A model generated the notes under the pieces. That model made no database searches. It was not told the origin of the DNA and worked only from the letters and a program-made list of their open reading frames with translations. DNA of 64,000 bases from contig CAYOOP010000001.1 of NCBI GenBank assembly GCA_964405685.1, positions 124,551 through 188,550 on the forward strand. The letters run 5' to 3'. Below, piece by piece: positions 6,453 through 47,689 of the stretch. The position numbers were made by a program, and so were the translations under genes. The stretch comes from an uncultured Rickettsiales bacterium (GTDB lineage: Bacteria; Pseudomonadota; Alphaproteobacteria; Rickettsiales; SXRF01). Position 1 is the stretch's first letter; every line of letters starts with the position of its first letter.

Positions 6453-7813
6453 GCCGCAAGCGCCTGCACGCTCGTGGTGAAGGAATAACGCAAGCCCTGC
6501 GTGGCGAGCTTTTGGTTGAGTGTCGCAGAGATGCGTTCACGCACGACCTCGGCACCTTCTAAAGCCGTCGTCGGCAACACAATACTGTAGTCCGAACCTG
6601 TCTGCCGGTAATCAAATGCCAAATCCGCCGCACGCAAACTTTCGCGTACCGCATCTCGAACACTACGCGCCAAGCGCACCTGCATGTCCTCCGCGAGCGA
6701 CTCCGGAACATTAAGCGAGACGGTAAGCAGGCTTACCGGAAACTTGGCACGTTGGCCGAGCGATTTTAGGTATTGAGTATGGCGTTCGAAATACGAACGC
6801 GTCATCAACTGGTGGCGCGGATCAATCACCGCATCCGAAAGTGCTTGGTCGAAATGGCGTGTGTTGATCAGTGCCTGCGCCGCCCAATCCGCCACCGCAC
6901 GCACCGTCTCCACTGTTTGCATGCCTAAATCATGAAACTGCAATACTTCGATTTTAAGCATGCCGAGCACCTCGCCCGTACGCGCGATGATGGGTGTCGC
7001 AAGAACCCCTTCACCCGCCAGTGCTGCAGCGTGGGTTTCGTTTGCCACCGTGAGCAATTCACGCCGTCCGATGATCATTTCATAGAGCGCAGAGCTCGGC
7101 GGAATCCGGCGTAAGAAACCGCTTTGTGCGTCCCCCCAACCTGAGGCGATACTCACATTTAACCCCTGGCTATCGAGTAAGAATAGCGAAAATGATTTCG
7201 CGTCCGTCAGTTCACGCACAACCGTTTCAATCGCGCGCATCAATTGCGCAGGCGACATCGTCTCCATCGCCTTAGCGGCCTGATACACCGTCAGCGCCGA
7301 GCGCATATCACTCGCCACACGCTCTTCCAACCGCTGCTTGCGGCTGCGCACTTCCTGGTAGGCTTGTGCTGTTACCGATTCACGCGAGAGCGCGTCCATC
7401 AACTGTCCGTTTAAACGGTTGTTTTCACGGATATGACGCTGGCGAATTTCCCCTAGCACCAAGGCCGCGGCCAACCACAACACCGGCAATGTGAGTGCTT
7501 CTGAAGAAATAATGGTGTGCACTGGAAAGGCAGGGTTACCCACCACAAACACCAGCGTACTAAATGCCGCCGCGACCAACCCTGCAATCACGCCATATTG
7601 CACCGACAGCAGCAACACAATAATCCAAAACGGATGGGGTTGCACTCCCGCGTAGCGTGTACCTTCAAAAAACGCCATATCCACCACAAGCGCTATGGCG
7701 ATAAAGACCATCAACTCAATCCACGCATGCAACCGCACGCCTAGGATGTTGGAAGTGGTAGGATTCGTCTCCAAGCGTTCTTCAATGACCCGCTCGGCTG
7801 TTACCAAGTCCAT
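6449..7813 (-). CDS. pelD: PelD-like c-di-GMP receptor (TM + GAF + degenerate GGDEF)
   Basis: 4 TM, coiled coil, GAF-like region, C-terminal GGDEF-like fold with RxxD I-site (LRAADL) and no GGDEF motif. Confidence 0.85.
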   Translation of the reverse strand: MDLVTAERVIEERLETNPTTSNILGVRLHAWIELMVFIAIALVVDMAFFEGTRYAGVQPHPFWIIVLLLSVQYGVIAGLVAAAFSTLVFVVGNPAFPVHTIISSEALTLPVLWLAAALVLGEIRQRHIRENNRLNGQLMDALSRESVTAQAYQEVRSRKQRLEERVASDMRSALTVYQAAKAMETMSPAQLMRAIETVVRELTDAKSFSLFLLDSQGLNVSIASGWGDAQSGFLRRIPPSSALYEMIIGRRELLTVANETHAAALAGEGVLATPIIARTGEVLGMLKIEVLQFHDLGMQTVETVRAVADWAAQALINTRHFDQALSDAVIDPRHQLMTRSYFERHTQYLKSLGQRAKFPVSLLTVSLNVPESLAEDMQVRLARSVRDAVRESLRAADLAFDYRQTGSDYSIVLPTTALEGAEVVRERISATLNQKLATQGLRYSFTTSVQALAA

Positions 7814-10800: not shown

Positions 10801-11634
10801 AAACGCAATCGCCTGTATCGGTGCACCGTTATAAAGTAACGCACTCGCAAGCACCACGTTATTGCTGCCATCCGGCTGAACCTTTGCCCAGGCGGTCGCA
10901 TACGCAAGCGCATCATCCTGCCGTTTGGCAAGCGCCAACAAACGCACATATTGCACCGCATGCGCGCTATCCATCGTTGCATTCGGAAGCGCGAGATAAT
11001 CGGTAAACGCTTGCAGCGCCGCCGCATCATCCTTCGCAGCAACCGCAACATCAGCGATCGAAAGCATCACCTCCGGTTTTTGTTTCCCCGTCACTTCATT
11101 TAATTTTTGCAACACGGAAAGCTGCTCCGCATAGAACTGCTTGCTATTTAAATAACCCGAAAGCGCCGTCAAACGCGCTTCATTCGGCTCCAATTCCGCA
11201 AGCTTCACCAGCGCCACTTTATACTCATCCTCACGCCCAAGTGCCAACAACACTTGCGCGCGCGCATCAATCGCCGCCACATCGTCAGGCTTCGTTGCAA
11301 GATAGGTATCATACGTCTCAAGCGCCTTGTCGGGATTTTTCTCGGCCATATAAGCATTGGCAAGCGTTTGCGTAGTCGCAAAACCAAGCGTACCCGCAGC
11401 TTTTTCGGATTCAAAGGCAACCGATGCCTCTGCACTACTCACAACAGCAGACACCGGAGGTGTTACGAGAGGCGCTTCAGCAACGGGTGCGGGCATGGGC
11501 GGCGGGGGCGGCAGATCATTGCTCATCTGCGTGAGGTAATAGCCTGCACCTGCGCCGACGACAGCCAAAACAGTTGCTACTAAGAGTGCTTTTTTCGCAG
11601 GAATGCGCGGAATTTTGCTCACTGTAAGTCCCAA
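7801..11634 (-). CDS. pelB: PelB-like TPR/outer-membrane beta-barrel export protein
   Basis: 1277 aa; N-terminal hydrophobic helix, Pro-rich linker, long Ala-rich TPR-like helical region, roughly 290-aa C-terminal amphipathic-strand region ending in Trp; 13-nt overlap with pelD. Confidence 0.72.
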   Translation of the reverse strand: MGLTVSKIPRIPAKKALLVATVLAVVGAGAGYYLTQMSNDLPPPPPMPAPVAEAPLVTPPVSAVVSSAEASVAFESEKAAGTLGFATTQTLANAYMAEKNPDKALETYDTYLATKPDDVAAIDARAQVLLALGREDEYKVALVKLAELEPNEARLTALSGYLNSKQFYAEQLSVLQKLNEVTGKQKPEVMLSIADVAVAAKDDAAALQAFTDYLALPNATMDSAHAVQYVRLLALAKRQDDALAYATAWAKVQPDGSNNVVLASALLYNGAPIQAIAFIDVVKPADAAAMPADLKKISAEAYAAQGEYAKALPLFKELRASAVDGEYEESYFVALANVAKTDDAARDELRTLVKDQFESGKLTDAQKMDRVYALLNAGDKVMAMEYAEHGMQTAADDTKEKWSQLYNSLTAAPAKRLAGKAPKAAKTAKASSDDETAKPVARAASSKRIGHSATAKAAMPAPSVALDKRIALATRPGMSDAFLRATAFDALNAGRKQDAVKLFAQLAVKNGPKSSDAEQLMYVLGARVGQQEMAWLTSAAKQSKGENRTGWIEVIASAAPAEGIVAAAELNPDWLNVLAFSQRYASSLQQLGQADQLDRYKQVRGVQATSADAMVNQAAVAFTNRNPAEGERLLNAAASAPDATRRTHISVAELNLQRARYVEASSALATAGRTNSAGRDAVDSAREAVAINYYQATLAHRDGDDTQAQAYYQAALKAGEGQQFDDRGTQEKIYASQMALGMIDPARRGFEGLMKQNPQDETLLADYIAALLEQKRHSDARAVAATYGGGIKPGVRAVAPVAMDVSGVLQVPADALTTIQPMSGGHELKLQFNRPLPAHFVPGGASPKPAWLSYYTVSYDSIVIAAAPGYSLRSDGATVSAVADNAAAPMVADNRQGYLRLQLLYARTELESNEVDQALNRLNALGADYADAPEYKAYQANAEFYAANPKRALKLVKDAQRLDPQNEDIARMRRNIERFHAEHLKLDHEWYKLGSAKQNLSTLEARVQYTDDVEATLKLQTNHIKTGVIRRTQGAAREFSGNKFRAELEMAKMVDDSSVVAASVFGNQDTGGGALSYQSVNLLGTTQVYGEYHKPYWDLPEAVVADTVRDRVGASHWWKPDPDFTVRAEGAYNRYSVDVKENIADSVSARANVLYTLQDLQPYVALSYNFNGEYLRGRVKRNSFAGSTFKYLPLRSREVHSLTAVVSHDFDVQTNGEMELGYAIDRLGDQGPIAEGRLTHNLADDFDIQLRGRYGFEEENASKHNASSLGGYARWTW

Positions 11635-17539: not shown

Positions 17540-18225
17540 ATATTTTAGCATTTCAGCATGTGCATTTTGAAACGGTGGGGTTGATTGCCGATTGGGCAGA
17601 GCTGCGTGGACACAGGCTTAGCGTATGCAAACTCTATGAGGGTGATCCGCTCCCACCCCATGACTCCTACGATATGCTGGTGGTGATGGGCGGCCCGATG
17701 AGCGTGGGGGATGAAAAAATATACCCATGGCTTGCCGGCGAAAAAGCCTTTATCAAAGCGGCTGCCCAAGCAGAAAAATATGTGCTAGGCGTGTGTTTGG
17801 GCGCACAGCTTATTGCCAGCACACTCGGCGCAAAAGTGTATCCCAATCTTGTCAAAGAAATCGGCTGGTTTCCCGTTGCCACTGTGGACGAAGCCCTCGG
17901 CGTGCCCGTTCTCCGCGGTTTAAACCCTGCGATGACAGCGTTTCATTGGCATGGCGATACGTTTGAGATACCAGATGGTGCGACGCTACTCATGTCGAGC
18001 GAAACCTGCGAACATCAAGCATTCCTCTACAAAGACACAGTGCTGGGGCTGCAATTTCACTTGGAAATGACGGAAGATGGCATAAAAAACCTCATCGCCA
18101 ACTGCCGTGCGGATATTATTCCATCACCCACCATACAGCCGGAAGAAAAACTCATCTCTGGTACAACGGCCATTCCCGCCTGTCAGCGCGTGCTTTATTC
18201 GATGTTGGATCGATTGGTTGCGTAA
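17536..18225 (+). CDS. Class I glutamine amidotransferase-like protein
   Basis: VVMGGPMSV, LGVCLGAQL (nucleophile Cys), WHGDTF, GLQFHLE; ATGA overlap with the MarR gene. Confidence 0.9.
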   Translation: MNILAFQHVHFETVGLIADWAELRGHRLSVCKLYEGDPLPPHDSYDMLVVMGGPMSVGDEKIYPWLAGEKAFIKAAAQAEKYVLGVCLGAQLIASTLGAKVYPNLVKEIGWFPVATVDEALGVPVLRGLNPAMTAFHWHGDTFEIPDGATLLMSSETCEHQAFLYKDTVLGLQFHLEMTEDGIKNLIANCRADIIPSPTIQPEEKLISGTTAIPACQRVLYSMLDRLVA

Positions 18226-18313
18226 TCGCTGTTTAAAATAAACTGCCGTACGGTTTCAGGGTACTTTACAGCGCAGAGATACGTCCTCGGTATCCTGTCA
18301 TCCAGTCTAAACC

Positions 18314-18378
18314 TAAGTTAGCACTTCAAAATGTTGGCTGTGGAAGAGCCTGTTTAGTGAATTCGCTCTCAGTATGCC
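18314..18378 (-). repeat. att-like repeat copy A (core plus conserved arm)
   Basis: taagttagcacttcaaaatgttggctg followed by tggaagagcctgtttagtgaattcgctctcagtatgcc; core identical to the sequence at the tRNA-Gln 3' end. Confidence 0.9.
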
Positions 18379-18744
18379 ACGATAAATTAGCGGAAAATAG
18401 GGATTTCCAGGGGTGCACATTCCGTGCATGAATTAGGGTAGGAAAATCTGGTGATAACGGGGCCCCAGTGTTCGATTCACCTCAACAGCACCATTCCCTC
18501 CTATTAATGTATTGATATATAATGGATTCACATTTGCCAGGATATCACCTTTGATTGTGGATGTAATGCTTGGCCCTTAAACCCACCGGCAACCACAAAT
18601 TGCGCTGGCAGATATCACGAAAATCTGTTAATTAGTTTCCCCAATTGCTGAGCATACAGCAAACGAAACATACGGGGAGTAGCATGATGAAATCACTGCG
18701 TATCTACGATACCAGAAACACTTTACACAATGCAAGAGTCGGCA

Positions 18745-18836
18745 AGATCAACAACGCAACCTCCATCTGGAATCAGGCGGGGTGTAATCTGTATAACGAT
18801 ACGGTGGGCAGTTTCGATGCCTTTGCTACCTCCGCG
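18745..18836 (+). repeat. 92-bp copy of an internal RTX gene segment (matches 20728-20819)
   Basis: Manual alignment gives 87/92 identical; both read INNATSIWNQAG.NLYNDTVGSFDAFATSA-like. Confidence 0.92.
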
Positions 18837-18889
18837 AATGATAATGATCAAATACAACAGATGACACTATGCAATCGGAGAGGTCTAGT

Positions 18890-19291
18890 ATGAGGCAGAA
18901 AATGACAATTATTTTCTTCGCGATATTAATGCTGTTACTGGGAACCTATGCTGTTGCAGCGTTGGTAGAACAGGTAAATTTAAGGAGCGAAGGAAAAGCA
19001 GCAGAAATAAGGAAAGAAGCAGGTGAGTTTCGATTTGAAGATTACAAGTCTGCTGAGGAAGCCCAAACTGCGCTTTTAAATTTGCATCCGATTGGAAGTG
19101 AAACCCAAAAACTAATAGAAAGATTTAAGCAGTACGGAAACATCACCAGGGAAGACCAAATCACGATAACCTATAATCCTAAAGTATCTGCGCACCTAAA
19201 CCTTGTATCCACCCAGTGGGTACTCATTATAAATAACAGTAATAACAATATTCGGTCTCTAGACGTCAAAAAATATCTAACGGGGCTTTGA
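18890..19291 (+). CDS. Exported/membrane-anchored hypothetical protein, candidate immunity protein
   Basis: RBS ggagagg, N-terminal hydrophobic helix, AT-rich; upstream of the RTX gene. Confidence 0.65.
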   Translation: MRQKMTIIFFAILMLLLGTYAVAALVEQVNLRSEGKAAEIRKEAGEFRFEDYKSAEEAQTALLNLHPIGSETQKLIERFKQYGNITREDQITITYNPKVSAHLNLVSTQWVLIINNSNNNIRSLDVKKYLTGL

Positions 19292-19308
19292 GGCCTTAAG
19301 GGGAGATT

Positions 19309-19719
19309 ATGCTGCGTAAGATTCTAAAACCTCTGCTGATTCTACCAATTCTAGTGGGCATTAGCCTTGGATATTTCTTTGCCAATGCCGCCACGCAAGA
19401 TAATCCAATGACGTATTGTGAAATCGTTGCCACCATATCTTTTAAGCCATCAGAAAAATTTAAAACATATATCAAAAATGGCACTGCACTTGAGCTTTAT
19501 GATCCAGCAAAGCATACAAATATCAAAGAGTTTTATATCCAAAATAACAAGTACGATATTGAGGAAGCCAATTGGTCTTCTAATGGTGATCCTTGCAAAC
19601 TTAATTTAGGAGCTGTTTTAAAAATCTTTGGGTTGATGTTCATATTAAGTTTTGGATTCACTGCCTACTTCTTGAAAGCAATAGTAATTGTTTTTCAAAT
19701 GGTTAAGGCCATATTTTAG
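19309..19719 (+). CDS. Two-TM hypothetical protein, candidate cognate immunity protein
   Basis: RBS aaggggag; N- and C-terminal hydrophobic helices around a polar loop; ends 8 nt before the RTX start; AT-rich like the RTX 5' end. Confidence 0.65.
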   Translation: MLRKILKPLLILPILVGISLGYFFANAATQDNPMTYCEIVATISFKPSEKFKTYIKNGTALELYDPAKHTNIKEFYIQNNKYDIEEANWSSNGDPCKLNLGAVLKIFGLMFILSFGFTAYFLKAIVIVFQMVKAIF

Positions 19720-19727
19720 GGGGATTT

Positions 19728-22700
19728 ATGACCGAAACATTAACAGATCAACGCATTGATAGCATTATAAACAATACGCCTGCAACGTTTGATGTCTCTG
19801 CAAACCCAAATGTTGATAGTCATTATGGAGAATGGAAAGCGCTTCATAGTGTAGGGGCTATACAGGTACAAAATTACACAGACATTATTACTCAAGAAGC
19901 TGCTGCGCAGGGTGTTAGTGGAGACCTTGTAAAGGCAATCATGTATGTAGAATTTGCTCAGGGAGCACTTTACGGCATTCCTGCGCAAGCTGCAGGAGTG
20001 GCTGATTCGCTTTACCCTATGAACATAAAAGGAAGTATATGGCAAGATCTTATACCCGGAGGGGATTTTTCTGACCCAGTAATAAATATCCGTGCAGGTG
20101 TTACATTAATTAAGCGTATTACAGATAGATTAGATAATCCAACAGTTGAAGAAATAGCTACTCTGTATAACAGCACCGGCAGAGAATTAGTTTCTGATTA
20201 TGGTGCTCGCGTTAAAATGGTGAAAGATAATCAATTGTGGCTTGATGCTCAAAACTATCCTAGTGGATACCATGCAGAAACCGCTAGTGAATATTTTGGA
20301 ATCACATCTACTATAGATAATGTTTGGGATTCTATTAAAGTTTTTGATAATCAACTTGCTAGCACAGGACAAACCTTTTTACAAACCATCGCTTTAAACA
20401 TTAGAGACAGTGGTGGATTAGGTGCGGCACTTAAAAATCTTTTTGGTGCTAATGTTAGTGCGAATCCAGAAGTAAACGCCCCCACCAGCTCCACCAACTT
20501 CTTCCAAATCTCGAACTCCGTCGGTCCCAATGCGGGGGAGCAACTCGATCTCAGCCTTACGACGGATTATCTCAACGGTCTCGCCGTCTCCGGCGGCAAT
20601 TGGCAGATTAATCTGCCGGGGAGTATTTTAAACACCAATGGGCTGTTTAATGTTGCGCCCTCCTCCTTCCTTACCGATGGCTGGCGGCCCGGTGCGGGGG
20701 AGATGGCTAACTATAATTTAAGCGGGCAGATCAACAACGCAACCTCCATCTGGAATCAGGCGGGGTATGATTTGTATAACGATACGGTGGGCAGTTTCGA
20801 TGCCTTTGCCACCTCGGCGCTGGGGCGGATTAATAACTATGTGATGGATGCCACCAATCTGCTCAACATTGATCCGCTGGTGCTGGATCTGAATGGCAAT
20901 GGCGTGGAGCTCAAGAGTTACCAGGATGCGAATGTGCTCTTTAATATGGATGCGGATGACTACAAAGAGCAGACGGGGTGGGTCGGTGCGAGTGATGGGT
21001 TTTTGGTGCTGGATAAAAATGGCGACGGCGTCATTAACGATGTCAGCGAGATGTTCTCGGAATATTTTACCTCGGGCGCGAAGAACGGGCTGGCGGCGCT
21101 GGCGACGATGGATAGCAACCACGACGGTGTGTTTAGCGCGGGCGACGCGGCCTATGGCCAGGTGCGCGTGTGGCAGGATGTGAATGGCAATGGGCAGACG
21201 GATGCGGGGGAACTGACGACGCTTGCATCACGCGGCATTACCAGCATTTCGCTTAACGGGACGCCGGGGAATGGCGCGCTGATTGCGGGCAACGAAGTGC
21301 AGGTGACGACGACGATGGTGATGAACGGCACCACGCGCGCGGTGGCGGCAATCAACCTGCTTGCCAACCCTAACGGGCATGAGTGGGATTTGGCGGCGCA
21401 GGGCATAATGCTGCATTCCGAGGCAGGCACTGCGAGCTTTAGCGTCAGCGATGTGAATGGGATGACAGTGAATGTAGCGGCGCTTGGGGTGAGCGGCGCC
21501 TATGGTAACGCCGGGAATGATACGCTGGTTGGCGATGGCACTGCCAACTGGCTGGGCGGCGGCGGCGGGAGCGATACGTTCTCGGGCGGTGCAGGGAATG
21601 ACGTGCTCATCATCGATGCGCAGGATGTGCAGGCCAATATCGATGGCGGCAATGGGTTTGATATTGTGCAGGTGGTCGGCGAGGACGGCGTCAATTTCAA
21701 CTTAAGCCAAGCGCATGTAGAGCTCGCGTATGGCGGTGTGGGCAATGATATTCTAGTTGGTGGTGGCACGACGAGCGTGTTTATCGCGGGCGGGGCTGGC
21801 GACGATATCATCATCGGCAGCGGCGCGAACGATGCACTCTCGGGTAATGATGGCAACGATATGGCCGACGGCGGATATGGCGATGATGTGATTCGTGGTG
21901 GTCGCGGCGACGACTTGCTGATTGGCGGGTTCGGCAACGATATTATGGATGGTGGCCTTGAAGACGATGTGCTGCAAGGCGGCGACGGCAACGATGTGTT
22001 CCTAAGCAGCGGCGGCTCCGACACGGTCGATGGCGGCGCGGGGGCCGACATTGTGCAATTTACAGGAAGCTTCTCGGAATATACGCGCACCACGCTGACG
22101 GATGGCCGCATTGTCATGACTGATCGCGTCGCATCGCGTGATGGTACGGTGACGATGAAAAACGTTGAGTTCTTCAATTTCAAAGACATCAATAATATTG
22201 GTGTGTCCTGGGATGCGCCGATGCCGGCGGACGACACGGTGACGATTAACCCTACCGGTACGCAAACCATTCTTGCATCGACCCTGCTTGCCAATGATGT
22301 CGATTATCAAAACCACACACTTCGCATCACCGGCCTTACCAATACTGTAGGAGGAACTGCAACACTAAATGGTGCTGGCAATGTCGTGTTCACGCCGACG
22401 GCTGGATTTAGCGGTGTCATGTCTTTCCAATATAAAATTGCGGATAGCCAGAATAATCCGGGGTTGACCGCTACTCAGCCGGGCACTGGGCTTTCGGCGG
22501 AAATGAAAGGCACGGTAACATTACAGACAGCGAGCCTTCCCACCGACCCGTTGTTTGGCGCCCAGTGGTATTTGGCCGAGGCCAATATTCTTCCGGTGTG
22601 GAAAAACTATACGGGCAAAGGTGTCACTATCGGTGTGTTTGAGACGGATATTTTCGATTATCAACATCCTGATTTAGCCCCCAACATCGCCACCAACCAT

Positions 22701-25700
22701 CCCAATAGCATCTACCGACCTGAAGATATTGGTTCCCATGCAACGCTGGTTGCCGGCGTGATCGGCGCGGCGCGCAATGGCCAAGGTGGTATTGGTGTTG
22801 CGTATGATGCGAAACTTGCCGCACAGAAATTTGACCTTACAACAAATAGCTATGGCCTACAGGATTTTGTGCATTACGATATTGTCAACAATAGCTGGAA
22901 TGCCACCCCGGCATTTTCGACCAATTTTGCGACCACGCCTCTTGCTCAAGACGTATTGAAAAACGCGGCTGTAAATGGGCGCGATGGGCTTGGTACGATT
23001 ATGGTATTTGCAGCAGGTAATGACCGTGCAGCGGGCGGTGACGCGAATGGTAGCGACCATAACAGCTCACGTTTTAGCATTGAAGTCGGTGCTATTAACC
23101 GGCCTGGGGATGTTGGCGCGCTTGTCACTGCCTCTACACCTTTTAGTAATCCCGGCGCTTCGATTTTAGTATCTGCACCCGGCTCTAACATCACCTCCAC
23201 CTCTCAGCTATTGCAAAATGCCGATGGTGCTAGTTTCGGCGGCGACTATGAAACCGTGCAGGGCACCTCGTTTGCTACACCGATTATTTCCGGTGTCGCT
23301 GCACTAATGCTAGAAGCCAACCCCAATCTCGGCTATCGCGATGTGCAAAAAATACTCGCGTATTCAGCCGTCTCGGTCAACGATCCCAACACCAGTTGGC
23401 AAACCAACGGCGCTGTGGACTGGAACGGCGGCGGCTTGCATGTGAGTCAGGATTACGGTTTCGGCAAAGTAGATGCGCTAGCGGCGGTGCGCCTGGCGGA
23501 AACCTGGAACACCACGCAAACAGCTGCCAATGAAGTAGCAAGTGTCAAGCAAAGCGGAACCGTGCATGCAGCAATTCCCGATGGCGGCAGTATTATGCAA
23601 ATGCTCAATGTGAGCAATTCACTGCAAGTAGAACACGTAGAAGTGCAGCTGACGCTCAATCACACGCAATTGGGTGATCTTATCATTACGCTGATTGCAC
23701 CGGATGGAACGCAAAGCGTATTATTAAATCGAATCGATAAAGCGCTCGGCAGCACCGATGCGGCAGATCGCGGCTATGGCATCATCAACGTGCCGATTTT
23801 GCTGAATAGCACGCATGATTTTGGCCAGAACAGCGTTGGCACGTGGCAATTAAAAATTACCGATGCCGCCGGCGGCCAAGCGGGCACGCTGGAAAGTTGG
23901 GAACTGCGTTTGTACGGACAAGCAACCACTCCCAATAATACTTATATTTACACCAAGGAGTTTGCAACTTCGACAGGATCTTCACGTCAAACGCTAAATG
24001 ATAGCGCAGGCATAGACACTATCAATGCAGCGGCAATTACTACCGCAACCACAATCAATCTCACTGCAGGAAGCAACAGCACCATCGCTGGCCGCACTCT
24101 AACCATTGGCAGCGCCACCACGATCGAAAATATATATACAGGCGATGGCAATGACACCATCACCGGCAACGGCACTGATAATATACTAAACGGCGGTCGC
24201 GGTAATGATATTATCAACGGTGGTGGCGGTAACGATACTATCACCGGTGGTATGGGCAACGATACCCTTACCGGTAGCACAGGTGCCGATATTTTTGTTA
24301 TCAACAAGGAAAGCGGTGCAAGCGATATCGTCACCGATTTCAGTGCCGCTTCGGGTGATATCATTAGCGTACAGGGGTTCGAGAGCACTTACGGTTTTGC
24401 AAACTTGGTGCGCACGCAATCAGGCAGCAATGCCCTCGTTACATTGCAAAACGGTCAAACCATTGCGCTGAATAATGTTACCGCCAGCGCGCTTACCGCT
24501 GCAAATTTTAATTTTGGAAATGTGCTGCTTGGAACCACAGGGACCGACACATTAAACGGTACGTCAGGTGACGATATTATCAAAGGCATTAGCGGCGCGG
24601 ACATTTTAAACGGTGCTGCCGGGAATGACACGATTGTTGCGGGTGCCAACGCCAGCACGATCAATGGCGGCGATGGTAATGACATTCTCAAAGGCGGTGC
24701 CGGCAATGATGTGATCCTCGGCAATAACCATAATGATACGATCTATGGCAATGCTGGCAATGACACCATTACAGGCGATGACGGTATCGATAAAATCTAT
24801 GGTGGCGATGGTAATGACACGATCGACGGCGGCATTGGCAACGATATTATTTACGGTGGTAATGGTGTTATCAGCGACTTTAATAGCACCTTAAATAATG
24901 AATCCACTGAAAGCGATACCATTCATGGCGGCGTGGGTGATGATATCATCCATGGCGCCGGCGGGAACGACTTGCTCTACGGTGACGACGGCAACGATAC
25001 GATCTATGCCGGTAATGGCGGCGATACGGCAGACGGCGGAAATGGGAACGACACCTTATACGGCGGTATCGGCGGCGACACGATCAATGGCGGCGCAGGG
25101 AACGATAGCATCCATGGCGAATACGCCGTTACAGATACGGTCGGCAGTGATGATGTCATCCACGGAGACGACGGTAATGACATTATTGCCGGTGGCGGCG
25201 GCAACGATGTCATCTATGGCGATGCGGGGGATGATGATATTACCGGGGGGCTAGGAAACGATACGATCTATGGCGGTACAGGTAATGAAAATTATATGTG
25301 GGGTGATACTGGTATTGCAGGAAACCCAACCGGCTCCGATCGTTTTGTTATTACGCCTCGCTACCAAGCCAATACCGACGTTATTTGGGACTTCGATAAC
25401 AGTGATCAAAATGAGCGTGTTGATCTTTCAGCGTTTAATCTCACGACCGGTGATTTCAATTCGCGCATCTGGGTAGTGTCGGGAGTCAATTATACGGTGC
25501 CTGATTCGAACGGCGTTGTTCAAACTTATACCGCGACTGATATTTTTATTCGTGACACCGCAGGTAGCATCAATTTCTCAACGGTCTTCAGCGATCCGCA
25601 TTTTCAGGTTGTCACATTAATCAACGTTTCAACGCTGTATGCGTACCAGTTGCTACTTACCACCCATGATGGTCCTTACTGGGGCACCACTGCTGTGAAT

Positions 25701-28700
25701 AGCATTACCGGCTCTGACGACAATGATATCATCTACGGAAGTGACGGTGATGATACGCTGCTCGGCCGCTATGGTCAGGATCGTCTGTACGGTGGTGCAG
25801 GTAATGATACGCTAGTAGGCAGCTATGGTGTGGATGTGCTTGACGGCGGTGCTGGCAATAACTGGGCGGACTTTTCCGATTCGTTTGCAGGTGTTGTAGT
25901 CAATCTGACTAGTGCTGTACAAAATGCCGGCACGTCCATTGCCAATGCTGCATATGGCGATACGCTCATCAACCTCCAAAACGTTTATGGTTCCCAAGCA
26001 AACGATAGCATCACCGGCGATGCAAACGATAATATATTAGATGGCTTAACCGGCGCTGATACATTAAACGGCGGCGCAGGAAAAGATACGGCGGAGTACA
26101 CCTATTCCGCTTCTGCCGTGACGGTGAATCTTACGACAAATGTAAATTCCGGTGGTGACGCGCAGGGCGATGTTCTTTCCAATATCGAAAACCTCATTGG
26201 CTCGAATTTCAACGATACGTTAACGGGTACATCAGCCAACAACACCATTGAAGGCGGCGCGGGCGCTGATACCATCAACGGTGGCGCAGGTATCGATACC
26301 GCATCTTACGCAGGTTCTACAGCTGGGATAACGGTCAATCTCACACTAACCACGATGCAGTCGGGAGGGGATGCACAAGGAGATATGCTCTCCGGGATCG
26401 AACATATCATTGGTTCTAGCTTTAACGACACGCTAACGGCGCTGGCTGCTGGAAGCACCTTAGATGGTGGTGTCGGAAGCGACACACTTAATGGCGGCGC
26501 AGGTAATGATACATTGATCGGCGGTGCTGGTGCCGACACTATGAACGGCAGTGGCAGCGTGGATACTATCTCTTATGCAAGCTCTAGCGCGGGGATTAAC
26601 GTGAACTTAGCGCTTACGACCGCCCAATCCGGTGGCGACGCCCAAGGTGATATTCTTTCCAGTATCGAAAACCTCATTGGCTCAGCGTTTGATGATGCCT
26701 TGGCTGGCAGTTCTGCTGCCAATACCATCAACGGCGGCGCGAGAAATGACACTATTTCTTACTCTAATTCAACGGCAGCAGTAAATGTCAACCTCGACCT
26801 TACAACCGCACAGTCAGGTGGATTTGCGGCAGGTGATATTCTCTCCAACATCGAAAATGTCATTGGCTCTAACTTTAATGATACTCTGACCGGAACCGCA
26901 GCTGCTAACAATATCAACGGTGGCACTGGAATTGATATTATCTCTTACGCCAATTCCGCTGCAGCGGTAAATGTAAATCTGACACTAACCACCGCACAAG
27001 CAAGTGGTTATGCTCAAGGCGATATTCTCTCTAATATTGAAAACCTCACCGGCTCTAATTTTAATGACATACTAACGGGTAGTGCTGTTGCTAACACCAT
27101 CAATGGCGGTGCAGGCAACGATACATTGGATGGTGGAAATGGGAATGATACGCTGACAGGGGGTACAGGTGCGGATGTATTCATCCTCCAGAAAGAAGCC
27201 AATGCGCGCGATGTGATTACCGATTTTAGCATCAGCACGTCCGGCGAAAAAATCAGTCTCTTAGGTTTCACAGCAGCGATTAACTTCACAAATTTAGCCA
27301 TCTCTCAACAGGGTGCTGATGCAGTTATCACCCTGGAGAATGGCCAAACGCTTACGCTAAGCAACGTCACCGCGAGTACGCTTACAGCGGCAAGCTTTGG
27401 GGAAAGCGGTGCCCTTATCGGCACGGCGGGAGATGATATTCTCACCGGCACTAGCGGTAATGATACAATGCAAGGGCTAGATGGAAATGATATTATAACC
27501 GGCCGTGCAGGCGCAGATACGCTGGATGGCGGTGCGGGCGTAGACACGCTGTCGTACTCCGATTCTGCCAGCGCGGTGAATGTGAACCTGGCAACGGGCG
27601 CAGCTTCCGGCGGGGATGCGCAAGGCGATGTTATCACCAATTTTGAAAACCTGACCGGTTCCGGCTACAACGATACACTAGTCGGCAGCATGGTTGCCAA
27701 CATGATCAATGGGGGTGCGGGTGTGGACCTTGTATCGTATCTCGATTCAACGGCCGGCGTAAGTGTCAACCTTGGGCTTGCCACGGTGCAGAGTGGCGGT
27801 TCTGCTGCGGGTGATATGCTTTCTAACATCGAAAATCTCACCGGTTCTAATTACAGCGACACGCTGACAGGAAATGCGGTCGATAACATCATCAATGGCG
27901 GTGCAGGCAACGATAACATCAACGGCGCGGCGGGGAACGATACCATCAACGGCGGCGATGGGGATGACATATTAAACGGCGGTACGGGTGCAGATAACCT
28001 TACTGGCGGCAATGGTATCGACACTGCGTCTTATTCGGCGTCAGCCGCAGCGGTGACAATCAACCTCACGACTAACGTAAACACTGGGGGCGATGCGCAA
28101 GGGGATTTACTTTATACGATCGAGAATCTGACTGGTTCTGCGTATAACGACATCATTACTGGCAGCGCTGCTAATAACGTGCTGCTGGGCGGCGCGGGTG
28201 CGGATACGCTGGATGGTGCTGGCGGCATGGATACCGTATCTTACACGGGTTCCAATGCGGCGGTTGTGATTGATCTTGGGCTTGCGACCGCGCAATCCGG
28301 CGGCCACGCGGCGGGTGATATTTTGAAGAACATCGAGAATATTCTCGGCTCGGCGTATAACGATACGCTGAATGGCACGTCTGCCGCCAACACGCTCGAC
28401 GGCGCGAGTGGTGTGGATGTGGTTTCATATGCAGGGTCGAACGCTGCGATAAATGTGAACCTGGCGCTAACCGGTGCACAAACCGGGGGGCATGCGCAAG
28501 GAGACATTCTTTCAAATGTCGAGGGTCTTATTGGCTCGAATTACAACGACACGCTGGGCGGAAGTTCTGCTGTCAACGTGCTGGATGGCGGTGTTGGCGT
28601 AGATACGGTTTCGTATGCTAATTCCAGTGCTGCTGTGACCGTGAACCTCACGCTGACCACCGCACAAACGGGCGGATTCGCGCAAGGGGATATTCTCAAG

Positions 28701-30035
28701 AACATCGAGAACATCCTGGGCTCAGCGTATAACGATACGCTGATTGGGACGAGTGCTGCAAATACGCTCGATGGTGCAGCGGGGATTGATACGGTATCTT
28801 ACGCATCATCTACTGCAGCTGTGAATGTAAACCTGAACCTTGCAACCGCACAAACCGGTGGGGATGCCCAGGGCGATATTCTGAAGAATATCGAAAATAT
28901 TCTAGGTTCGGCGTACAACGATACGCTGACGAGTAATACAGCAGCAAATACACTCGATGGTGGCGCAGGTGTGGATACGGTTTCTTATGTTGGTTCTGCT
29001 GCGGGCGTAAGCGTAAATCTGAACCTTACTACGGTACAAGCGGGTAGTAATGCCGCAGGAGATATTCTCAAGAACATCGAAAATGTACTTGGCTCTAGTT
29101 ACAACGACAGCTTTGTAAGCAATGCAATTGCCAATACGTTTGATGGCGCGGCGGGTGTAGACACCGTTTCGTATGCAGGTTCTGCAACGGCTGTGAATGT
29201 GAATCTCGCGCTGACCACCACGCAGGCGGGCGGGAATGCTGCCGGGGATATTCTGAAGAATATCGAAAACCTCACTGGCTCTGCGTATAACGATACGCTC
29301 GCGGGTACGAGTGCGGCGAATACGATTGATGGCGGCGTAGGTATCGACACCATCTCTTACGCCAACTCCACGGCGGCCGTGAATGTGAACCTCGCGCTCA
29401 CCACCGCACAAGCAGGCGGCTTCGCACAAGGCGATATTCTAAGCAACATCGAGAACATCTTGGGTTCGGCGTATAACGATACGTTGATTGGTACGAGTGC
29501 CGCCAACACGCTAGATGGTGCGGCAGGTATAGACACCCTGTCTTATGCTAACTCCATCGCAGGCATCACGGTTAACCTTGGTGTGACCAGCGCCCAAACG
29601 GGCGGGTTTGCGGCAGGCGATATATTGCGGAATATCGAAAACATTAACGGTTCCAACTATAACGATACCATCACCGGCACCACGGCAAGCAACGTGATAT
29701 ACGGCGGCAATGGTGTTGATCGTCTAACCGGCGGCACAGGTGCGGATGTGTTTAAATACGATGCCACCGCCAACTCCGGCATTGGAGCAGGCCTGCGCGA
29801 CATCATCACCGACTTTAACATCGCACAGCTGGATAAGATTGACTTGAGCGCCTTTGCCGGCACATTCGCGTTCAAAGGCACGGCCGCCTTCGGTGGTGGT
29901 GGCCCGCAAGTCAACCACGCTTCCACCTCCGGCATCACCACCATTGGTGTCGATGCCAACGGCGATAACCTACTCGACTTCCAAATCGAACTCACCGGCA
30001 CCCACGCTCTTACAGCGACGGATTTTGTGTTATAG
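19728..30035 (+). CDS. Giant RTX (T1SS-substrate) protein: SLT/lysozyme-like N-terminus, FrpC-type self-processing module, RTX repeats, Ig/cadherin-like domain, S8 peptidase + P-domain, long Ca-binding repeats, serralysin-like C-terminus
   Basis: VKAIMYVE..PMNI..DPVINIRAG..LYN (SLT-like); IDPLVLDLNGNG..GWVGASDGFLVLDKNGDG (SPM); GGxGxD repeats; HATLVAGVI, FAAGN, GTSFATP (S8); DFQIELTG..LTATDFVL C-terminus. Confidence 0.9.
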   Translation: MTETLTDQRIDSIINNTPATFDVSANPNVDSHYGEWKALHSVGAIQVQNYTDIITQEAAAQGVSGDLVKAIMYVEFAQGALYGIPAQAAGVADSLYPMNIKGSIWQDLIPGGDFSDPVINIRAGVTLIKRITDRLDNPTVEEIATLYNSTGRELVSDYGARVKMVKDNQLWLDAQNYPSGYHAETASEYFGITSTIDNVWDSIKVFDNQLASTGQTFLQTIALNIRDSGGLGAALKNLFGANVSANPEVNAPTSSTNFFQISNSVGPNAGEQLDLSLTTDYLNGLAVSGGNWQINLPGSILNTNGLFNVAPSSFLTDGWRPGAGEMANYNLSGQINNATSIWNQAGYDLYNDTVGSFDAFATSALGRINNYVMDATNLLNIDPLVLDLNGNGVELKSYQDANVLFNMDADDYKEQTGWVGASDGFLVLDKNGDGVINDVSEMFSEYFTSGAKNGLAALATMDSNHDGVFSAGDAAYGQVRVWQDVNGNGQTDAGELTTLASRGITSISLNGTPGNGALIAGNEVQVTTTMVMNGTTRAVAAINLLANPNGHEWDLAAQGIMLHSEAGTASFSVSDVNGMTVNVAALGVSGAYGNAGNDTLVGDGTANWLGGGGGSDTFSGGAGNDVLIIDAQDVQANIDGGNGFDIVQVVGEDGVNFNLSQAHVELAYGGVGNDILVGGGTTSVFIAGGAGDDIIIGSGANDALSGNDGNDMADGGYGDDVIRGGRGDDLLIGGFGNDIMDGGLEDDVLQGGDGNDVFLSSGGSDTVDGGAGADIVQFTGSFSEYTRTTLTDGRIVMTDRVASRDGTVTMKNVEFFNFKDINNIGVSWDAPMPADDTVTINPTGTQTILASTLLANDVDYQNHTLRITGLTNTVGGTATLNGAGNVVFTPTAGFSGVMSFQYKIADSQNNPGLTATQPGTGLSAEMKGTVTLQTASLPTDPLFGAQWYLAEANILPVWKNYTGKGVTIGVFETDIFDYQHPDLAPNIATNHPNSIYRPEDIGSHATLVAGVIGAARNGQGGIGVAYDAKLAAQKFDLTTNSYGLQDFVHYDIVNNSWNATPAFSTNFATTPLAQDVLKNAAVNGRDGLGTIMVFAAGNDRAAGGDANGSDHNSSRFSIEVGAINRPGDVGALVTASTPFSNPGASILVSAPGSNITSTSQLLQNADGASFGGDYETVQGTSFATPIISGVAALMLEANPNLGYRDVQKILAYSAVSVNDPNTSWQTNGAVDWNGGGLHVSQDYGFGKVDALAAVRLAETWNTTQTAANEVASVKQSGTVHAAIPDGGSIMQMLNVSNSLQVEHVEVQLTLNHTQLGDLIITLIAPDGTQSVLLNRIDKALGSTDAADRGYGIINVPILLNSTHDFGQNSVGTWQLKITDAAGGQAGTLESWELRLYGQATTPNNTYIYTKEFATSTGSSRQTLNDSAGIDTINAAAITTATTINLTAGSNSTIAGRTLTIGSATTIENIYTGDGNDTITGNGTDNILNGGRGNDIINGGGGNDTITGGMGNDTLTGSTGADIFVINKESGASDIVTDFSAASGDIISVQGFESTYGFANLVRTQSGSNALVTLQNGQTIALNNVTASALTAANFNFGNVLLGTTGTDTLNGTSGDDIIKGISGADILNGAAGNDTIVAGANASTINGGDGNDILKGGAGNDVILGNNHNDTIYGNAGNDTITGDDGIDKIYGGDGNDTIDGGIGNDIIYGGNGVISDFNSTLNNESTESDTIHGGVGDDIIHGAGGNDLLYGDDGNDTIYAGNGGDTADGGNGNDTLYGGIGGDTINGGAGNDSIHGEYAVTDTVGSDDVIHGDDGNDIIAGGGGNDVIYGDAGDDDITGGLGNDTIYGGTGNENYMWGDTGIAGNPTGSDRFVITPRYQANTDVIWDFDNSDQNERVDLSAFNLTTGDFNSRIWVVSGVNYTVPDSNGVVQTYTATDIFIRDTAGSINFSTVFSDPHFQVVTLINVSTLYAYQLLLTTHDGPYWGTTAVNSITGSDDNDIIYGSDGDDTLLGRYGQDRLYGGAGNDTLVGSYGVDVLDGGAGNNWADFSDSFAGVVVNLTSAVQNAGTSIANAAYGDTLINLQNVYGSQANDSITGDANDNILDGLTGADTLNGGAGKDTAEYTYSASAVTVNLTTNVNSGGDAQGDVLSNIENLIGSNFNDTLTGTSANNTIEGGAGADTINGGAGIDTASYAGSTAGITVNLTLTTMQSGGDAQGDMLSGIEHIIGSSFNDTLTALAAGSTLDGGVGSDTLNGGAGNDTLIGGAGADTMNGSGSVDTISYASSSAGINVNLALTTAQSGGDAQGDILSSIENLIGSAFDDALAGSSAANTINGGARNDTISYSNSTAAVNVNLDLTTAQSGGFAAGDILSNIENVIGSNFNDTLTGTAAANNINGGTGIDIISYANSAAAVNVNLTLTTAQASGYAQGDILSNIENLTGSNFNDILTGSAVANTINGGAGNDTLDGGNGNDTLTGGTGADVFILQKEANARDVITDFSISTSGEKISLLGFTAAINFTNLAISQQGADAVITLENGQTLTLSNVTASTLTAASFGESGALIGTAGDDILTGTSGNDTMQGLDGNDIITGRAGADTLDGGAGVDTLSYSDSASAVNVNLATGAASGGDAQGDVITNFENLTGSGYNDTLVGSMVANMINGGAGVDLVSYLDSTAGVSVNLGLATVQSGGSAAGDMLSNIENLTGSNYSDTLTGNAVDNIINGGAGNDNINGAAGNDTINGGDGDDILNGGTGADNLTGGNGIDTASYSASAAAVTINLTTNVNTGGDAQGDLLYTIENLTGSAYNDIITGSAANNVLLGGAGADTLDGAGGMDTVSYTGSNAAVVIDLGLATAQSGGHAAGDILKNIENILGSAYNDTLNGTSAANTLDGASGVDVVSYAGSNAAINVNLALTGAQTGGHAQGDILSNVEGLIGSNYNDTLGGSSAVNVLDGGVGVDTVSYANSSAAVTVNLTLTTAQTGGFAQGDILKNIENILGSAYNDTLIGTSAANTLDGAAGIDTVSYASSTAAVNVNLNLATAQTGGDAQGDILKNIENILGSAYNDTLTSNTAANTLDGGAGVDTVSYVGSAAGVSVNLNLTTVQAGSNAAGDILKNIENVLGSSYNDSFVSNAIANTFDGAAGVDTVSYAGSATAVNVNLALTTTQAGGNAAGDILKNIENLTGSAYNDTLAGTSAANTIDGGVGIDTISYANSTAAVNVNLALTTAQAGGFAQGDILSNIENILGSAYNDTLIGTSAANTLDGAAGIDTLSYANSIAGITVNLGVTSAQTGGFAAGDILRNIENINGSNYNDTITGTTASNVIYGGNGVDRLTGGTGADVFKYDATANSGIGAGLRDIITDFNIAQLDKIDLSAFAGTFAFKGTAAFGGGGPQVNHASTSGITTIGVDANGDNLLDFQIELTGTHALTATDFVL
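28131..29700 (+). repeat. Tandem 186-bp (62-aa) intragenic repeats
   Basis: Unit-start GAT codons at 28689, 28875 and 29061 are 186 bp apart; unit DILKNIENILGSAYNDTL..DGAAGIDTVSY..VNVNL..AQ.GG.AQG; array ends approximate. Confidence 0.85.
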
Positions 30036-30141: not shown

Positions 30142-31023
30142 GTACATCTCGTCACGCAGCGCCAGGCACAGCTCGGAAAACTCAAAACACTCAAACAACG
30201 CGTGGAGCAATTGCGCGAGGAAATTATCGGGCTGGAAGCGCAAGTGCGCAGTGCTGAGGGGCAGCTTGCACTGACCGATGAAGAAATAGCCTCTGTGCAA
30301 GCATTGCTGCAAGAAGGGCTGGCGACCAAGCCACGCCTACTCGCACTCCAGCGCCAATCGGAAGAATTGCGCGGTCAGCACGGACAAACACTCGCCTCTA
30401 TCGCCAAAGCAAAGCAGGCAATTACCGAATCGGAATTGCAAGTGATCAATCAGGAAAATGATTTTGCGACTTCTATTGCTGCCGAGCTGCGCGAGATTCG
30501 CACCAAAATCGCTGACTATGAAGAGAAATTGCGCGTGGCTTCGGATGTGATGGCACGCACCACCGTGCTTGCGCCAACCGAAGGCATCGTCACAGGCCTG
30601 AAATTTCATACCATTGGTGGGGTGGTGCCGCCGGGCGCTACAATTATGGACATTGTGCCACAGAGCGATATGCTTGTACTCGATGTACGCATTCAACCAA
30701 CCGATATTGATGTGGTGAAACCCGGTCTTGAAGCGAAGGTAGTATTTTCAGCCTACAAAGCTCGCCGCATGCCGCTGGTTATGGGAAAAGTCACGCAAGT
30801 GTCGCCGGATGCATTTATCGAGCAGCAAGGCATTCAACCCGTTTCCTACTACACCGCGCGTGTAGAAGTGGATGGTGAACAAACCCGCGCGCTCGGAAGC
30901 GCTGTTACGCTTACCCCCGGCATACCTGCGGATGTCTTCATCCGCACCGGCAGCCGATCCTTCCTCGGCTATCTCCTCGCCCCACTGACCGAAAGCATGG
31001 ACCGCGCATTTAAGGAAGAATAG
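30142..31023 (+). pseudogene. 5'-truncated HlyD-family T1SS periplasmic adaptor
   Basis: Coiled coil plus VLAPTEGIVTGLKFHTIGGVVPPG, IQPTDID.V.PG, LTPGIPADVFIRTGSRSFLGYLLAP; no N-terminal TM segment and no plausible start codon; start coordinate approximate. Confidence 0.82.
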
Positions 31024-31127: not shown

Positions 31128-31187
31128 TTAGCACTTCAAAATGTTGACTGGGGAAGAGCCTGTTTAGTGAATTCGCTCTCAGCATGC
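31128..31187 (-). repeat. att-like repeat copy B
   Basis: ttagcacttcaaaatgttgactg-ggaagagcctgtttagtgaattcgctctcagcatgcc; near-identical to copy A. Confidence 0.9.
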
Positions 31188-31252
31188 CAAGAAAAATGGG
31201 CAGAAATACATTTCTGCGACATTCGGGGCAGTGTGAGCCTCAAGTGGGCTAA

Positions 31253-37044: not shown

Positions 37045-37120
37045 CAGGCCAGACTTAAGTTAGCACTTCAAAATGTTGGCTGTGGAATGGCGAATTTAGT
37101 GAAAATGCTCTCAGCATGCC
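37045..37120 (-). repeat. att-like repeat copy C
   Basis: 37045-37082 is identical over 38 bp to 47652-47689; followed by a diverged arm (tttagtgaaaatgctctcagcatgcc) shared with copies A and B. Confidence 0.92.
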
Positions 37121-37239
37121 AGAGAAAATAAGCAGAAAAAAACCTCTAATGGATCGTGTCTGATTTATTGATAGTGCGCACACAGGTAGCGGGTTGTTTA
37201 ACATATTGCCAACTATAGCACGCATTCTATAGTGCACGG

Positions 37240-47651: not shown

Positions 47652-47689
47652 CAGGCCAGACTTAAGTTAGCACTTCAAAATGTTGGCTG
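47652..47689 (-). repeat. att-like repeat copy D overlapping tRNA-Gln 3' end
   Basis: caggccagacttaagttagcacttcaaaatgttggctg; the last 6 nt are the tRNA 3' terminal CAGCCA. Confidence 0.92.

What the first reader, a model, noticed from the sequence alone, without database searches (positions are those of the whole stretch)
18745..20819. 92-bp relic of the RTX linker upstream of the candidate immunity genes: footprint of N-terminal cassette swapping
18745-18836 matches 20728-20819 at 87/92 nt. The matched segment lies between the variable N-terminal domain and the Asp-Pro cleavage site. A detached copy of this conserved segment upstream of the gene is what an N-terminal polymorphic-toxin locus would leave: immunity-toxin'-homology modules that recombine onto the constant body. 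Recombination between the two direct repeats would also delete the present toxin head and both small genes.
Basis: partly seen in the sequence, partly recalled or inferred. Interest (0 to 1): 0.62.

Follow-up and report, generated by a model that had tools for sequence, protein, structure and literature searches.

The report
Gene stub left by toxin-head swapping
A 97-base stub copied from the constant part of a giant secreted RTX protein sits just upstream of a foreign-looking cassette (two small genes plus a cell-wall-cutting toxin head), and related bacteria carry whole arrays of such displaced heads, so this is most likely a scar of toxin-head exchange by recombination.

Summary
The repeat is real: 87/92 identical (97 nt at 93%), with sharp edges, only two copies in the genome, and both in the same reading frame.

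The RTX gene encodes an exchangeable head (codons 1-250, lytic-transglycosylase fold), a constant linker, an FrpC-type Asp-Pro self-cleaving module and an RTX body. A 1.64-kb block of 38% GC (genome 52%) lies exactly between the stub's right end and codon 251. It holds two small membrane-protein genes and the head.

Homologues carry at least five different heads and unrelated upstream genes on the same scaffold. Relatives G032 and G055 hold tandem "head + truncated scaffold" modules separated by small exported-protein genes. Two other loci have headless stubs in the same position. This supports the cassette-swap reading.

- The repeated segment is the least conserved part of the scaffold, not a conserved one.
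- The stub has no head, so recombination here can only delete the present head.

New observation: the stub and at least 12 other truncated fragments run in frame into an "(A)ANDN…" tail that resembles the alphaproteobacterial SsrA (tmRNA) degradation tag. The scan had already noted such caps in two other genomes.

The parts
18318..18396 (+). att-like ~80-nt repeat, copy A; with copy B it brackets the whole RTX locus
   Evidence: (D10), 22, 27: four same-strand copies at 18318, 31128, about 37045 and 47652. The last abuts tRNA-Gln at 47684-47758.
18684..18893 (+). Stub ORF of 69 codons: a 20-codon leader, 33 scaffold codons and a 19-codon ANDN tail. Its stop overlaps the ATG at 18890 of the next gene (ATGA).
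   Evidence: GGGGAG lies 4 nt before the ATG.
18740..18836 (+). Upstream (relic) copy of the direct repeat, equivalent to scaffold codons 332-364
   Evidence: GC 0.536.
18834..18893 (+). SsrA-tag-like tail (A-N-D-N-D ... G-L-V-stop) that starts exactly where the homology ends
   Evidence: the same junction signature occurs in relatives.
18837..20477 (+). Low-GC cassette: tail, gene A, gene B and head codons 1-250
   Evidence: GC 0.381 against 0.52 for the genome and 0.54 on either side.
18890..19291 (+). Small gene A (P0002; N-terminal membrane anchor or signal; likely start 18890 with GGAGAGG 6 nt upstream; a longer frame opens at 18869). Candidate immunity or accessory gene.
   Evidence: no Pfam or NCBIfam family.
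19309..19719 (+). Small gene B (P0003; signal peptide plus C-terminal membrane helix). Candidate immunity gene.
   Evidence: A weak relative (36% over 42 aa, pairwise E 3e-8) lies two genes downstream of a homologous head in G077.
19728..20477 (+). Exchangeable head: lytic-transglycosylase / goose-lysozyme-like domain (codons ~5-175, invariant Glu75) plus a head-specific spacer
   Evidence: the same domain ends many other toxins, e.g. an Rhs protein. AF2 model pLDDT 91.6. Foldseek top hits MltE/MltC/MltF/g-type lysozyme, prob 1.00, TM ~0.5.
20478..20870 (+). Constant linker, codons 251-381, where similarity to homologues with other heads begins
20723..20819 (+). In-gene copy of the direct repeat (codons 332-364)
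20871..21380 (+). Asp382-Pro383 site and FrpC-type self-processing module
   Evidence: E 9e-28 to the FrpC SPM (PDB 6SJW); the alignment starts at Pro383.
19728..30035 (+). Whole RTX carrier gene, 3435 codons: RTX repeats, Ig/cadherin-like domain, subtilase-like region with P-domain, serralysin-type C-terminal domain
30154..31023 (+). Truncated hlyD', a C-terminal fragment only
   Evidence: 84% identical to the last 289 residues of the intact HlyD at G000:C1:104542-105810.
31128..31206 (+). att-like repeat, copy B

Best explanation
The upstream copy is a decayed remnant of the constant scaffold of an earlier gene version, or of a displaced module.

The RTX protein is a type I secretion carrier. 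Its first 250 codons are an exchangeable peptidoglycan-cutting head. After them come a constant linker, a calcium-triggered Asp-Pro self-cleaving module that would release the head outside the cell, and the RTX body.

A cassette made of tail, two small envelope-protein genes and head entered by homologous recombination within the scaffold, either as a single crossover of a circular module or as an unequal exchange. That duplicates the piece of scaffold used as homology. One copy stays fused to the body, and the other is stranded upstream of the cassette. Later deletion trimmed the stranded copy to 33 codons behind a short leader.

The stranded fragment reads in frame into an ANDN tail like the cell's own SsrA tag. 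That tail probably marks such non-exportable leftovers for ClpXP degradation. Because the stub's stop overlaps the start of gene A, the stub may now also serve as a translationally coupled leader.

Shown: the repeat, its frame, the GC edges, the variety of heads, and the arrays and stubs in relatives.
Inferred: the order of events, the recombination route, the immunity roles, and the degron function.
For: - Repeat, frame and copy number.
- Foreign block: 38.1% GC against 52-54%, with edges exactly at 18836/18837 and 20477/20478.
- Scaffold starts at codon 251: P0009 is 63% identical from there on but unrelated before.
- Head types found on this scaffold: SLT-like (window, P0007, P0025); the unknown head of P0009; a Cys-motif head (P0120, G048); GH24 lysozyme with or without LysM (L030, L058); weak Pfam matches below the curated cut-offs to lipase class 3 (L058), DUF6973 (L056) and metallopeptidase (L056). 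Each has a different upstream exported or membrane-protein gene.
- The head domain is a mobile toxin module that ends Rhs and other effectors elsewhere.
- Tandem arrays occur in G032:C42 and G055:C27, laid out as head-scaffold'-tail, small gene, head-scaffold'-tail, small gene, main gene.
- Headless stubs lie directly upstream of a cassette in L030 (72/89 nt, with an in-frame stop) and L052.
- The scaffold is an FrpC-type SPM, and an intact T1SS lies about 40 kb away.
- Tail signature.
- Host tag and SspB.
Against: - The stub has no head and covers only codons 332-364, not 251-364, so at least one further deletion must be assumed.
- The repeat lies 245 nt inside the scaffold, not at the variable/constant boundary.
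- No close strain or read data show the locus before or after an exchange.
- The nearest relatives are metagenome fragments, and L030/L028 may be two copies rather than one gene.
- The whole locus lies between att-like repeats, so the swap may have happened in a donor.
- The window's tail has a single Ala and ends in GLV, not AA.
- About half of the truncated fragments in relatives lack the ANDN tail.
Confidence: 0.7

Rival explanations
1. The exchange did not happen in this genome. The whole locus (stub, cassette, RTX gene, hlyD') arrived as one island by site-specific integration between the att-like repeats, with the stub already in place.
For: Same-strand ~80-nt repeats at 18318 and 31128, with further copies up to tRNA-Gln. 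The hlyD' fragment is a diverged (84%) paralogue of the resident hlyD. There is no other scaffold copy in the genome.
Against: No integrase lies between the repeats. The RTX body and the stub have host-like GC (0.52-0.54), and only the cassette is deviant. This reading changes where the swap occurred, not what the stub is.
Confidence: 0.4
2. The stub is kept for a present function. It would be a short leader ORF, with its own ribosome-binding site, whose translation is coupled to the first small gene. The scaffold-derived codons would be incidental.
For: GGGGAG lies 4 nt before ATG 18684. The stop TGA overlaps ATG 18890 (ATGA), and that ATG has its own GGAGAGG. Tail stops abut or overlap the next gene in L058 and L060 too.
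Against: There is no evidence of expression, and the promoter scan was uninformative. It does not explain the origin of the 97 nt or the GC break. It is compatible with the main explanation rather than opposed to it.
Confidence: 0.25
3. An ordinary local duplication of a piece of the gene (slippage or unequal crossing-over) with no cassette exchange; the low GC simply reflects the head's own composition.
For: Direct repeats 1983 nt apart can arise from tandem duplication followed by decay.
Against: Nothing else of the gene is duplicated, and the flanks are random. The interval is a sharply bounded 38% GC block. Homologues prove head and upstream-gene turnover on this scaffold, and relatives show complete displaced modules.
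Confidence: 0.07
4. The ANDN junction is a DNA recombination site or operator at the cassette's left end (e.g. a Fur-box-like AATGATAAT), not a peptide signal.
For: The window reads GCGAATGATAATGATCAAAT, 13/19 to the classical Fur box by hand count. FrpC-type proteins are iron-regulated in Neisseria (PMC5233953). The junctions are precise on the cassette side and variable on the scaffold side.
Against: Five different codon combinations encode the same A-N-D-N at the junctions, always in frame with the fragment. Variants such as AAC GAT AAT and AAT GAC AAT break the Fur-like word. A gamma/beta-type tail, AANDEIWRVAA, occurs in P0272. Caveat: part of the set was found with a pattern that only allows synonymous changes.
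Confidence: 0.15

Closest known systems
Orphan toxin-immunity modules of CDI (cdiA-CT/cdiI) and Rhs loci (Poole et al. 2011, PMC3150448; Zhang et al. 2012, PMC3482391)
   Same: A variable toxin domain sits on a constant delivery protein with a neighbouring small protective gene. Displaced modules keep a fragment of the constant region, and that fragment can recombine with the main gene.
   Different: The layout is a mirror image. The toxin is N-terminal, the small genes and displaced modules lie upstream, export is by type I secretion, and release is by an Asp-Pro self-cleaving module. Fragments are capped by an SsrA-like tail. In this window the displaced module has lost its head.
FrpC / ApxIVA 'clip-and-link' RTX proteins and the FrpD-FrpC pair of Neisseria (PMC7078468, PMC5233953)
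   Same: Asp-Pro site plus SPM (E 9e-28 to PDB 6SJW), followed by RTX repeats and T1SS export. An upstream gene (frpD) encodes an envelope lipoprotein that binds the FrpC N-terminal domain with Kd ~0.2 nM.
   Different: FrpC's N-terminal part is not known as an enzyme or as exchangeable. Those papers discuss host adhesion, not antibacterial heads, immunity or displaced modules.
MARTX toxins with effector-domain mosaics generated by recombination
   Same: An RTX carrier exported by T1SS, with swappable internal effector domains released by autoprocessing.
   Different: MARTX effectors are internal, target eukaryotic cells, are released by a cysteine protease domain, and have no immunity genes or upstream stubs.
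SsrA (tmRNA) tag with SspB and ClpXP: Caulobacter AANDNFAEEFAVAA (PMC9393093), E. coli AANDENYALAA (PMC8138137)
   Same: The tails begin (A)ANDN and mostly end in V or A. The host's own tag begins ANDN and contains VAANDN. sspB lies next to ssrA in this genome.
   Different: Here the tail is encoded in the gene, not added by trans-translation. The middle and end of the tails are not conserved, and the window's tail ends in GLV. Degradation is untested.
Integron gene cassettes
   Same: Promoter-distal arrays of exchangeable units; a circular intermediate is plausible.
   Different: No integrase or attC is seen. The repeats are pieces of the coding scaffold, which implies homologous rather than site-specific recombination.

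Membership tests
Polymorphic toxin system | Different toxin domains on one conserved delivery scaffold | tested here: met
   At least five head types join the scaffold at the codon-251 equivalent.
Polymorphic toxin system | Toxin domain also used by other delivery systems | tested here: met
   606 hits. In most of the listed matches the domain lies at the C-terminal end of the protein, e.g. the RHS-repeat protein P0046 at residues 1511-1683.
Polymorphic toxin system | Adjacent cognate immunity gene that covaries with the toxin | tested here: inconclusive
   The upstream small exported or membrane-protein genes differ with each head. A weak P0003 relative lies near a homologous head in G077.
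Polymorphic toxin system | Displaced (orphan) modules that keep a piece of the constant region | tested here: met
   Complete modules in G032:C42 and G055:C27. Headless stubs in the window, L030 and L052.
FrpC-type self-processing RTX protein | Asp-Pro bond followed by an SPM homologous to FrpC 415-591 | tested here: met
   E 9.4e-28 to PDB 6SJW, starting at Pro383.
FrpC-type self-processing RTX protein | RTX nonapeptide repeats and a C-terminal T1SS-type domain, with a T1SS in the genome | tested here: met
   HemolysinCabind in 31 stretches and Peptidase_M10_C at 3205-3434. PrtD- and HlyD-type genes above cut-off at C1:102734-105810.
FrpC-type self-processing RTX protein | Calcium-dependent cleavage and cross-linking | not testable with these tools
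   Biochemical.
Family-1 lytic transglycosylase / goose-type lysozyme fold (head) | Lysozyme-like helical fold with a catalytic Glu | tested here: met
   pLDDT 91.6. Foldseek hits MltE, MltC, MltF, Slt and g-type lysozymes, prob 0.9-1.0, TM 0.4-0.53, E 6e-3 at best. Glu75 is invariant in 25 homologues. SLT Pfam hit on the homologue P0057.
Family-1 lytic transglycosylase / goose-type lysozyme fold (head) | Sequence membership in Pfam SLT for this protein | tested here: not met
   No Pfam or NCBIfam hit for residues 1-250 and no PDB sequence hit.
SsrA-type degron | N-terminal (A)ANDN part as in alphaproteobacterial tags | tested here: met
   The window reads S-A-N-D-N. The host tag is ANDNVAFVAANDNNVAAVAVAA. 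Relatives' tails read AANDN.
SsrA-type degron | C-terminal AA (ClpX determinant) | tested here: not met
   The window's tail ends in G-L-V. Among relatives only some end in AA or VA.
SsrA-type degron | Adaptor present, and degradation of tagged protein | tested here: inconclusive
   SspB is present at C1:333214-333588. Degradation is not testable here.

The most novel reading that the evidence does not exclude
FrpC-type self-cleaving RTX carriers form a mirror-image polymorphic toxin system that has not been described. N-terminal antibacterial heads and their upstream immunity genes would move as cassettes by homologous recombination between pieces of the coding scaffold (excision as circles, re-insertion into any scaffold). 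Every displaced, non-exportable fragment would be capped in frame by a genome-encoded copy of the cell's SsrA 'destroy me' tag. The window's two 97-nt repeats would be the arms of one such inserted cassette.
Probability: 0.4. Interest if true: 0.8.

Novelty: new variant of a known kind. Interest (0 to 1): 0.66.

Why it matters
Polymorphic toxin systems are known for C-terminal toxins with downstream spare modules. Type I secreted RTX proteins need their C-terminus for export and have not been described as polymorphic antibacterial toxins.

If the reading holds:
- FrpC-type 'clip-and-link' proteins, whose biology is still unclear, become carriers that release exchangeable heads.
- The tight FrpD-FrpC pair may be reinterpreted as an immunity-like pair.
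- The stubs give a simple genomic marker for past exchanges.
- The SsrA-like caps would be a new way for cells to dispose of leftover toxin fragments. This can be tested directly with reporter fusions in Caulobacter.

Tried and rejected
- The five-sequence alignment A3 was too diverse for a locus scan.
- The genome-contig scan gave only one distant locus. Close relatives exist only in metagenomes.
- No linker match was found in 60 relatives; only the SPM matched.
- Pfam and NCBIfam gave nothing for the two small genes, the stub or the head. The PDB sequence search gave nothing for the head.
- ARAGORN missed the two-piece tmRNA; Rfam found it.
- The promoter/terminator scan of 18150-19800 was no better than shuffles.
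- blastn found no similarity between the window's stub surroundings and L030.
- I considered whether the stub's 20-codon leader is the start of a lost head. It loosely resembles the first strand of the G048/P0120 heads, but it is too short to test, so I dropped the idea.
- I considered a Fur-box reading of AATGATAAT and rated it unlikely (see rivals).
- My first argument was that two alanines prove a protein-level origin of the tail. This is weakened because the ssrA genes of this order contain VAANDN internally.
- Eight literature searches found no report of N-terminal polymorphic heads on SPM-RTX carriers or of natural SsrA-like caps on spare toxin genes. Only open-access papers were searched.
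Full report
**Observation.** The two segments align at 87/92. The repeat finder extends them to 97 nt, 18740-18836 against 20723-20819, at 93%. In the same register the 145-150 nt on either side are 25-27% identical, i.e. random, so the repeat has sharp edges. The chance expectation over the window is about 7e-34. The 1.89-Mb genome holds exactly these two copies. The seven differences leave perfect blocks of 39 and 37 nt. Within the 92 nt, two changes alter the protein and three are silent. Compared with homologues, each copy carries one derived residue, so the copies have diverged independently since duplication.

**Anatomy.**
- The upstream copy is in frame inside a 69-codon ORF: ATG 18684 with GGGGAG 4 nt upstream, 20 unrelated codons, 33 codons matching RTX codons 332-364 (31/33), then A-N-D-N-D and 14 more codons. 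Its TGA overlaps ATG 18890 of the next gene.
- Two small genes follow. Gene A (18890-19291) has an N-terminal anchor. Gene B (19309-19719) has a signal peptide and a C-terminal helix. Neither has a family hit.
- Then comes the 3435-codon RTX gene, 19728-30035. Its first ~175 residues fold with pLDDT 91.6 into a lysozyme-like domain. The best structural matches are MltE, MltC, MltF, Slt and goose-type lysozymes. Glu75 is invariant in 25 homologues.
- Codons 251-381 form a linker. Asp382-Pro383 and the next ~170 residues match the FrpC self-processing module (PDB 6SJW, E 9e-28).
- RTX blocks, an Ig/cadherin-like domain, a subtilase-like region with a P-domain, and a serralysin-type C-terminal domain follow.
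- An intact PrtD/HlyD pair lies about 40 kb upstream in the genome.

**The interval is foreign.** GC is 0.381 for 18837-20477. It is 0.536 for the stub, 0.539 for the linker, 0.525 for the rest of the gene and 0.52 for the genome. The edges of the low-GC block coincide with the right end of the stub and with codon 250/251.

**Homologues.**
- An exhaustive search with codons 1-381 gave 606 hits. The head domain is a mobile toxin module. In most of the listed matches it lies at the C-terminal end of the protein, for example the RHS-repeat protein P0046.
- The scaffold is shared by proteins with other heads. P0009 is 63% identical from codon 251 onward and unrelated before it. P0120 and the G048 protein carry a Cys-motif head.
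- The metagenome locus L030 carries a phage-lysozyme-like head (weak match, below the Pfam cut-off) plus LysM. G032 has a phage-lysozyme head (above the cut-off) and a weak lipase-class-3-like head. G055 has weak DUF6973-like and metallopeptidase-like heads.
- The genes just upstream differ each time and encode exported or membrane proteins.

Segment-wise identity to the window's protein is 40-80% for codons 251-331, 72-86% for the SPM, and only 16-45% for codons 332-364. The repeat is therefore the least conserved part of the scaffold, and its 95% identity marks a duplication within one gene lineage. The variable/constant boundary is 245 nt upstream of it. The stub carries no alternative head.

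**Relatives show the full pattern.**
- In G032:C42 (same family) the minus strand reads: head, 5 SPM residues, tail; small exported-protein gene; lipase-like head, 45 SPM residues, tail; small gene; lysozyme head with complete SPM. The two SPM pieces are near-identical direct repeats, like the window's pair.
- G055:C27 has two head-SPM' modules cut at the same point, with lipoprotein-like genes between them.
- Headless stubs directly upstream of a cassette occur in L030 (72/89 nt to the SPM of L028, with an in-frame stop) and in G012:C6.
- L030 ends and L028 begins with a 97-nt overlap (96/97) at the equivalent of codons ~339-370. This is an assembly break in the same region. It fits either a repeat or strain-level head variation, and the two contigs may be separate copies.

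**Mechanism.** Recombination between a scaffold piece on a cassette and the scaffold of a resident gene (Campbell-type insertion of a circle, or unequal exchange) yields exactly this layout: scaffold piece, then cassette, then scaffold and body. Recombination between the repeats is the reverse reaction. Here it would fuse the 20-codon leader in frame to codon 332 and remove both small genes and the head. The stub's short length requires one more deletion. Because the locus lies between att-like repeats, the exchange may have happened before the island arrived.

**The tail.**
- By eye, and then by pattern, truncated scaffold fragments end in frame with (A)A-N-D-N, 8-15 variable residues and a stop. 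Examples are the window, G032:C12, G012:C6, two in G032:C42, G032:C53, G032:C58 and G055:C50 (N-D-N), and the proteins P0022, P0120, P0162, P0207 and P0217. P0272 ends AANDEIWRVAA.
- The cut points range from codon ~316 to beyond the first RTX block.
- Five codon combinations encode the motif. Part of the set was found with a pattern that allows only synonymous change.
- In an unbiased list, about half of the truncated fragments carry the motif.
- The host's two-piece tmRNA encodes ANDNVAFVAANDNNVAAVAVAA, with sspB next to it. Relatives have similar tags. The Caulobacter tag is AANDNFAEEFAVAA (PMC9393093).
- I infer a built-in degradation signal for non-exportable leftovers, but this is untested, and the window's own tail is a weak example.
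- The scan had noted such caps in two other genomes. I reached the observation before that look-up.

**Literature.** Eight full-text searches and five papers that could be opened (PMC3482391, PMC7078468, PMC12538545, PMC9393093, PMC8138137) gave no description of N-terminal polymorphic heads on SPM-RTX carriers. The abstract of PMC5233953, seen in the search listing, adds that FrpD, encoded upstream of frpC, binds FrpC's N-terminal domain at about 0.2 nM. That resembles an immunity pair.

**Verdict.** The cassette-swap reading is largely right, with the corrections above. This is a new variant of the polymorphic-toxin theme.

Noticed in passing
window 18318-18396, 31128-31206, ~37045-37140, 47652-47692: Four same-strand copies of an ~80-nt element; the last abuts tRNA-Gln (47684-47758). 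They divide the region into att-bounded blocks: the RTX locus, a barrel operon and a cco cassette. No integrase was seen in the RTX block.
   Followed up: partly
window 30154-31023: A hlyD fragment directly after the RTX gene. It lacks about 135 N-terminal residues and is 84% identical to the end of the intact HlyD at G000:C1:104542-105810. It looks like a remnant of a second T1SS operon.
   Followed up: partly
G000:C1:332616-332976 (L064), outside the window: The two-piece tmRNA has an unusually long tag with two ANDN motifs (ANDNVAFVA-ANDNNVAAVAVAA). The same doubled form occurs in G012, G032, G048 and G055. sspB lies immediately downstream.
   Followed up: partly
window ~22570-23900 (RTX codons ~950-1400): A subtilase-like region with a proprotein-convertase P-domain lies inside the RTX body. 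Pfam Peptidase_S8 is reported for the homologue P0009 but not for the window's protein, although the Asp/His/Ser motifs look present.
   Followed up: no
L052 (G012:C6:150000-166000), minus strand 5300-11100: An island with a tyrosine-recombinase-like gene, a headless SPM stub with an AANDN tail, two paralogous exported-protein genes, and a 135-residue protein ending in VAA.
   Followed up: no
L006/L050 (G048) and L058 (G032:C42): Some family members have Ser-Pro or Cys-Pro instead of Asp-Pro at the SPM start (SPLVLDL, CPIVLDL). If self-cleavage needs Asp, these carriers may not release their heads.
   Followed up: no
L059 (G032:C12) ~8150-8287: An SPM stub with an AANDN tail is followed at the contig end by an ORF that starts like a transposase (M-R-K-S-R-I-S-K-E-K-Q...).
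   Followed up: no
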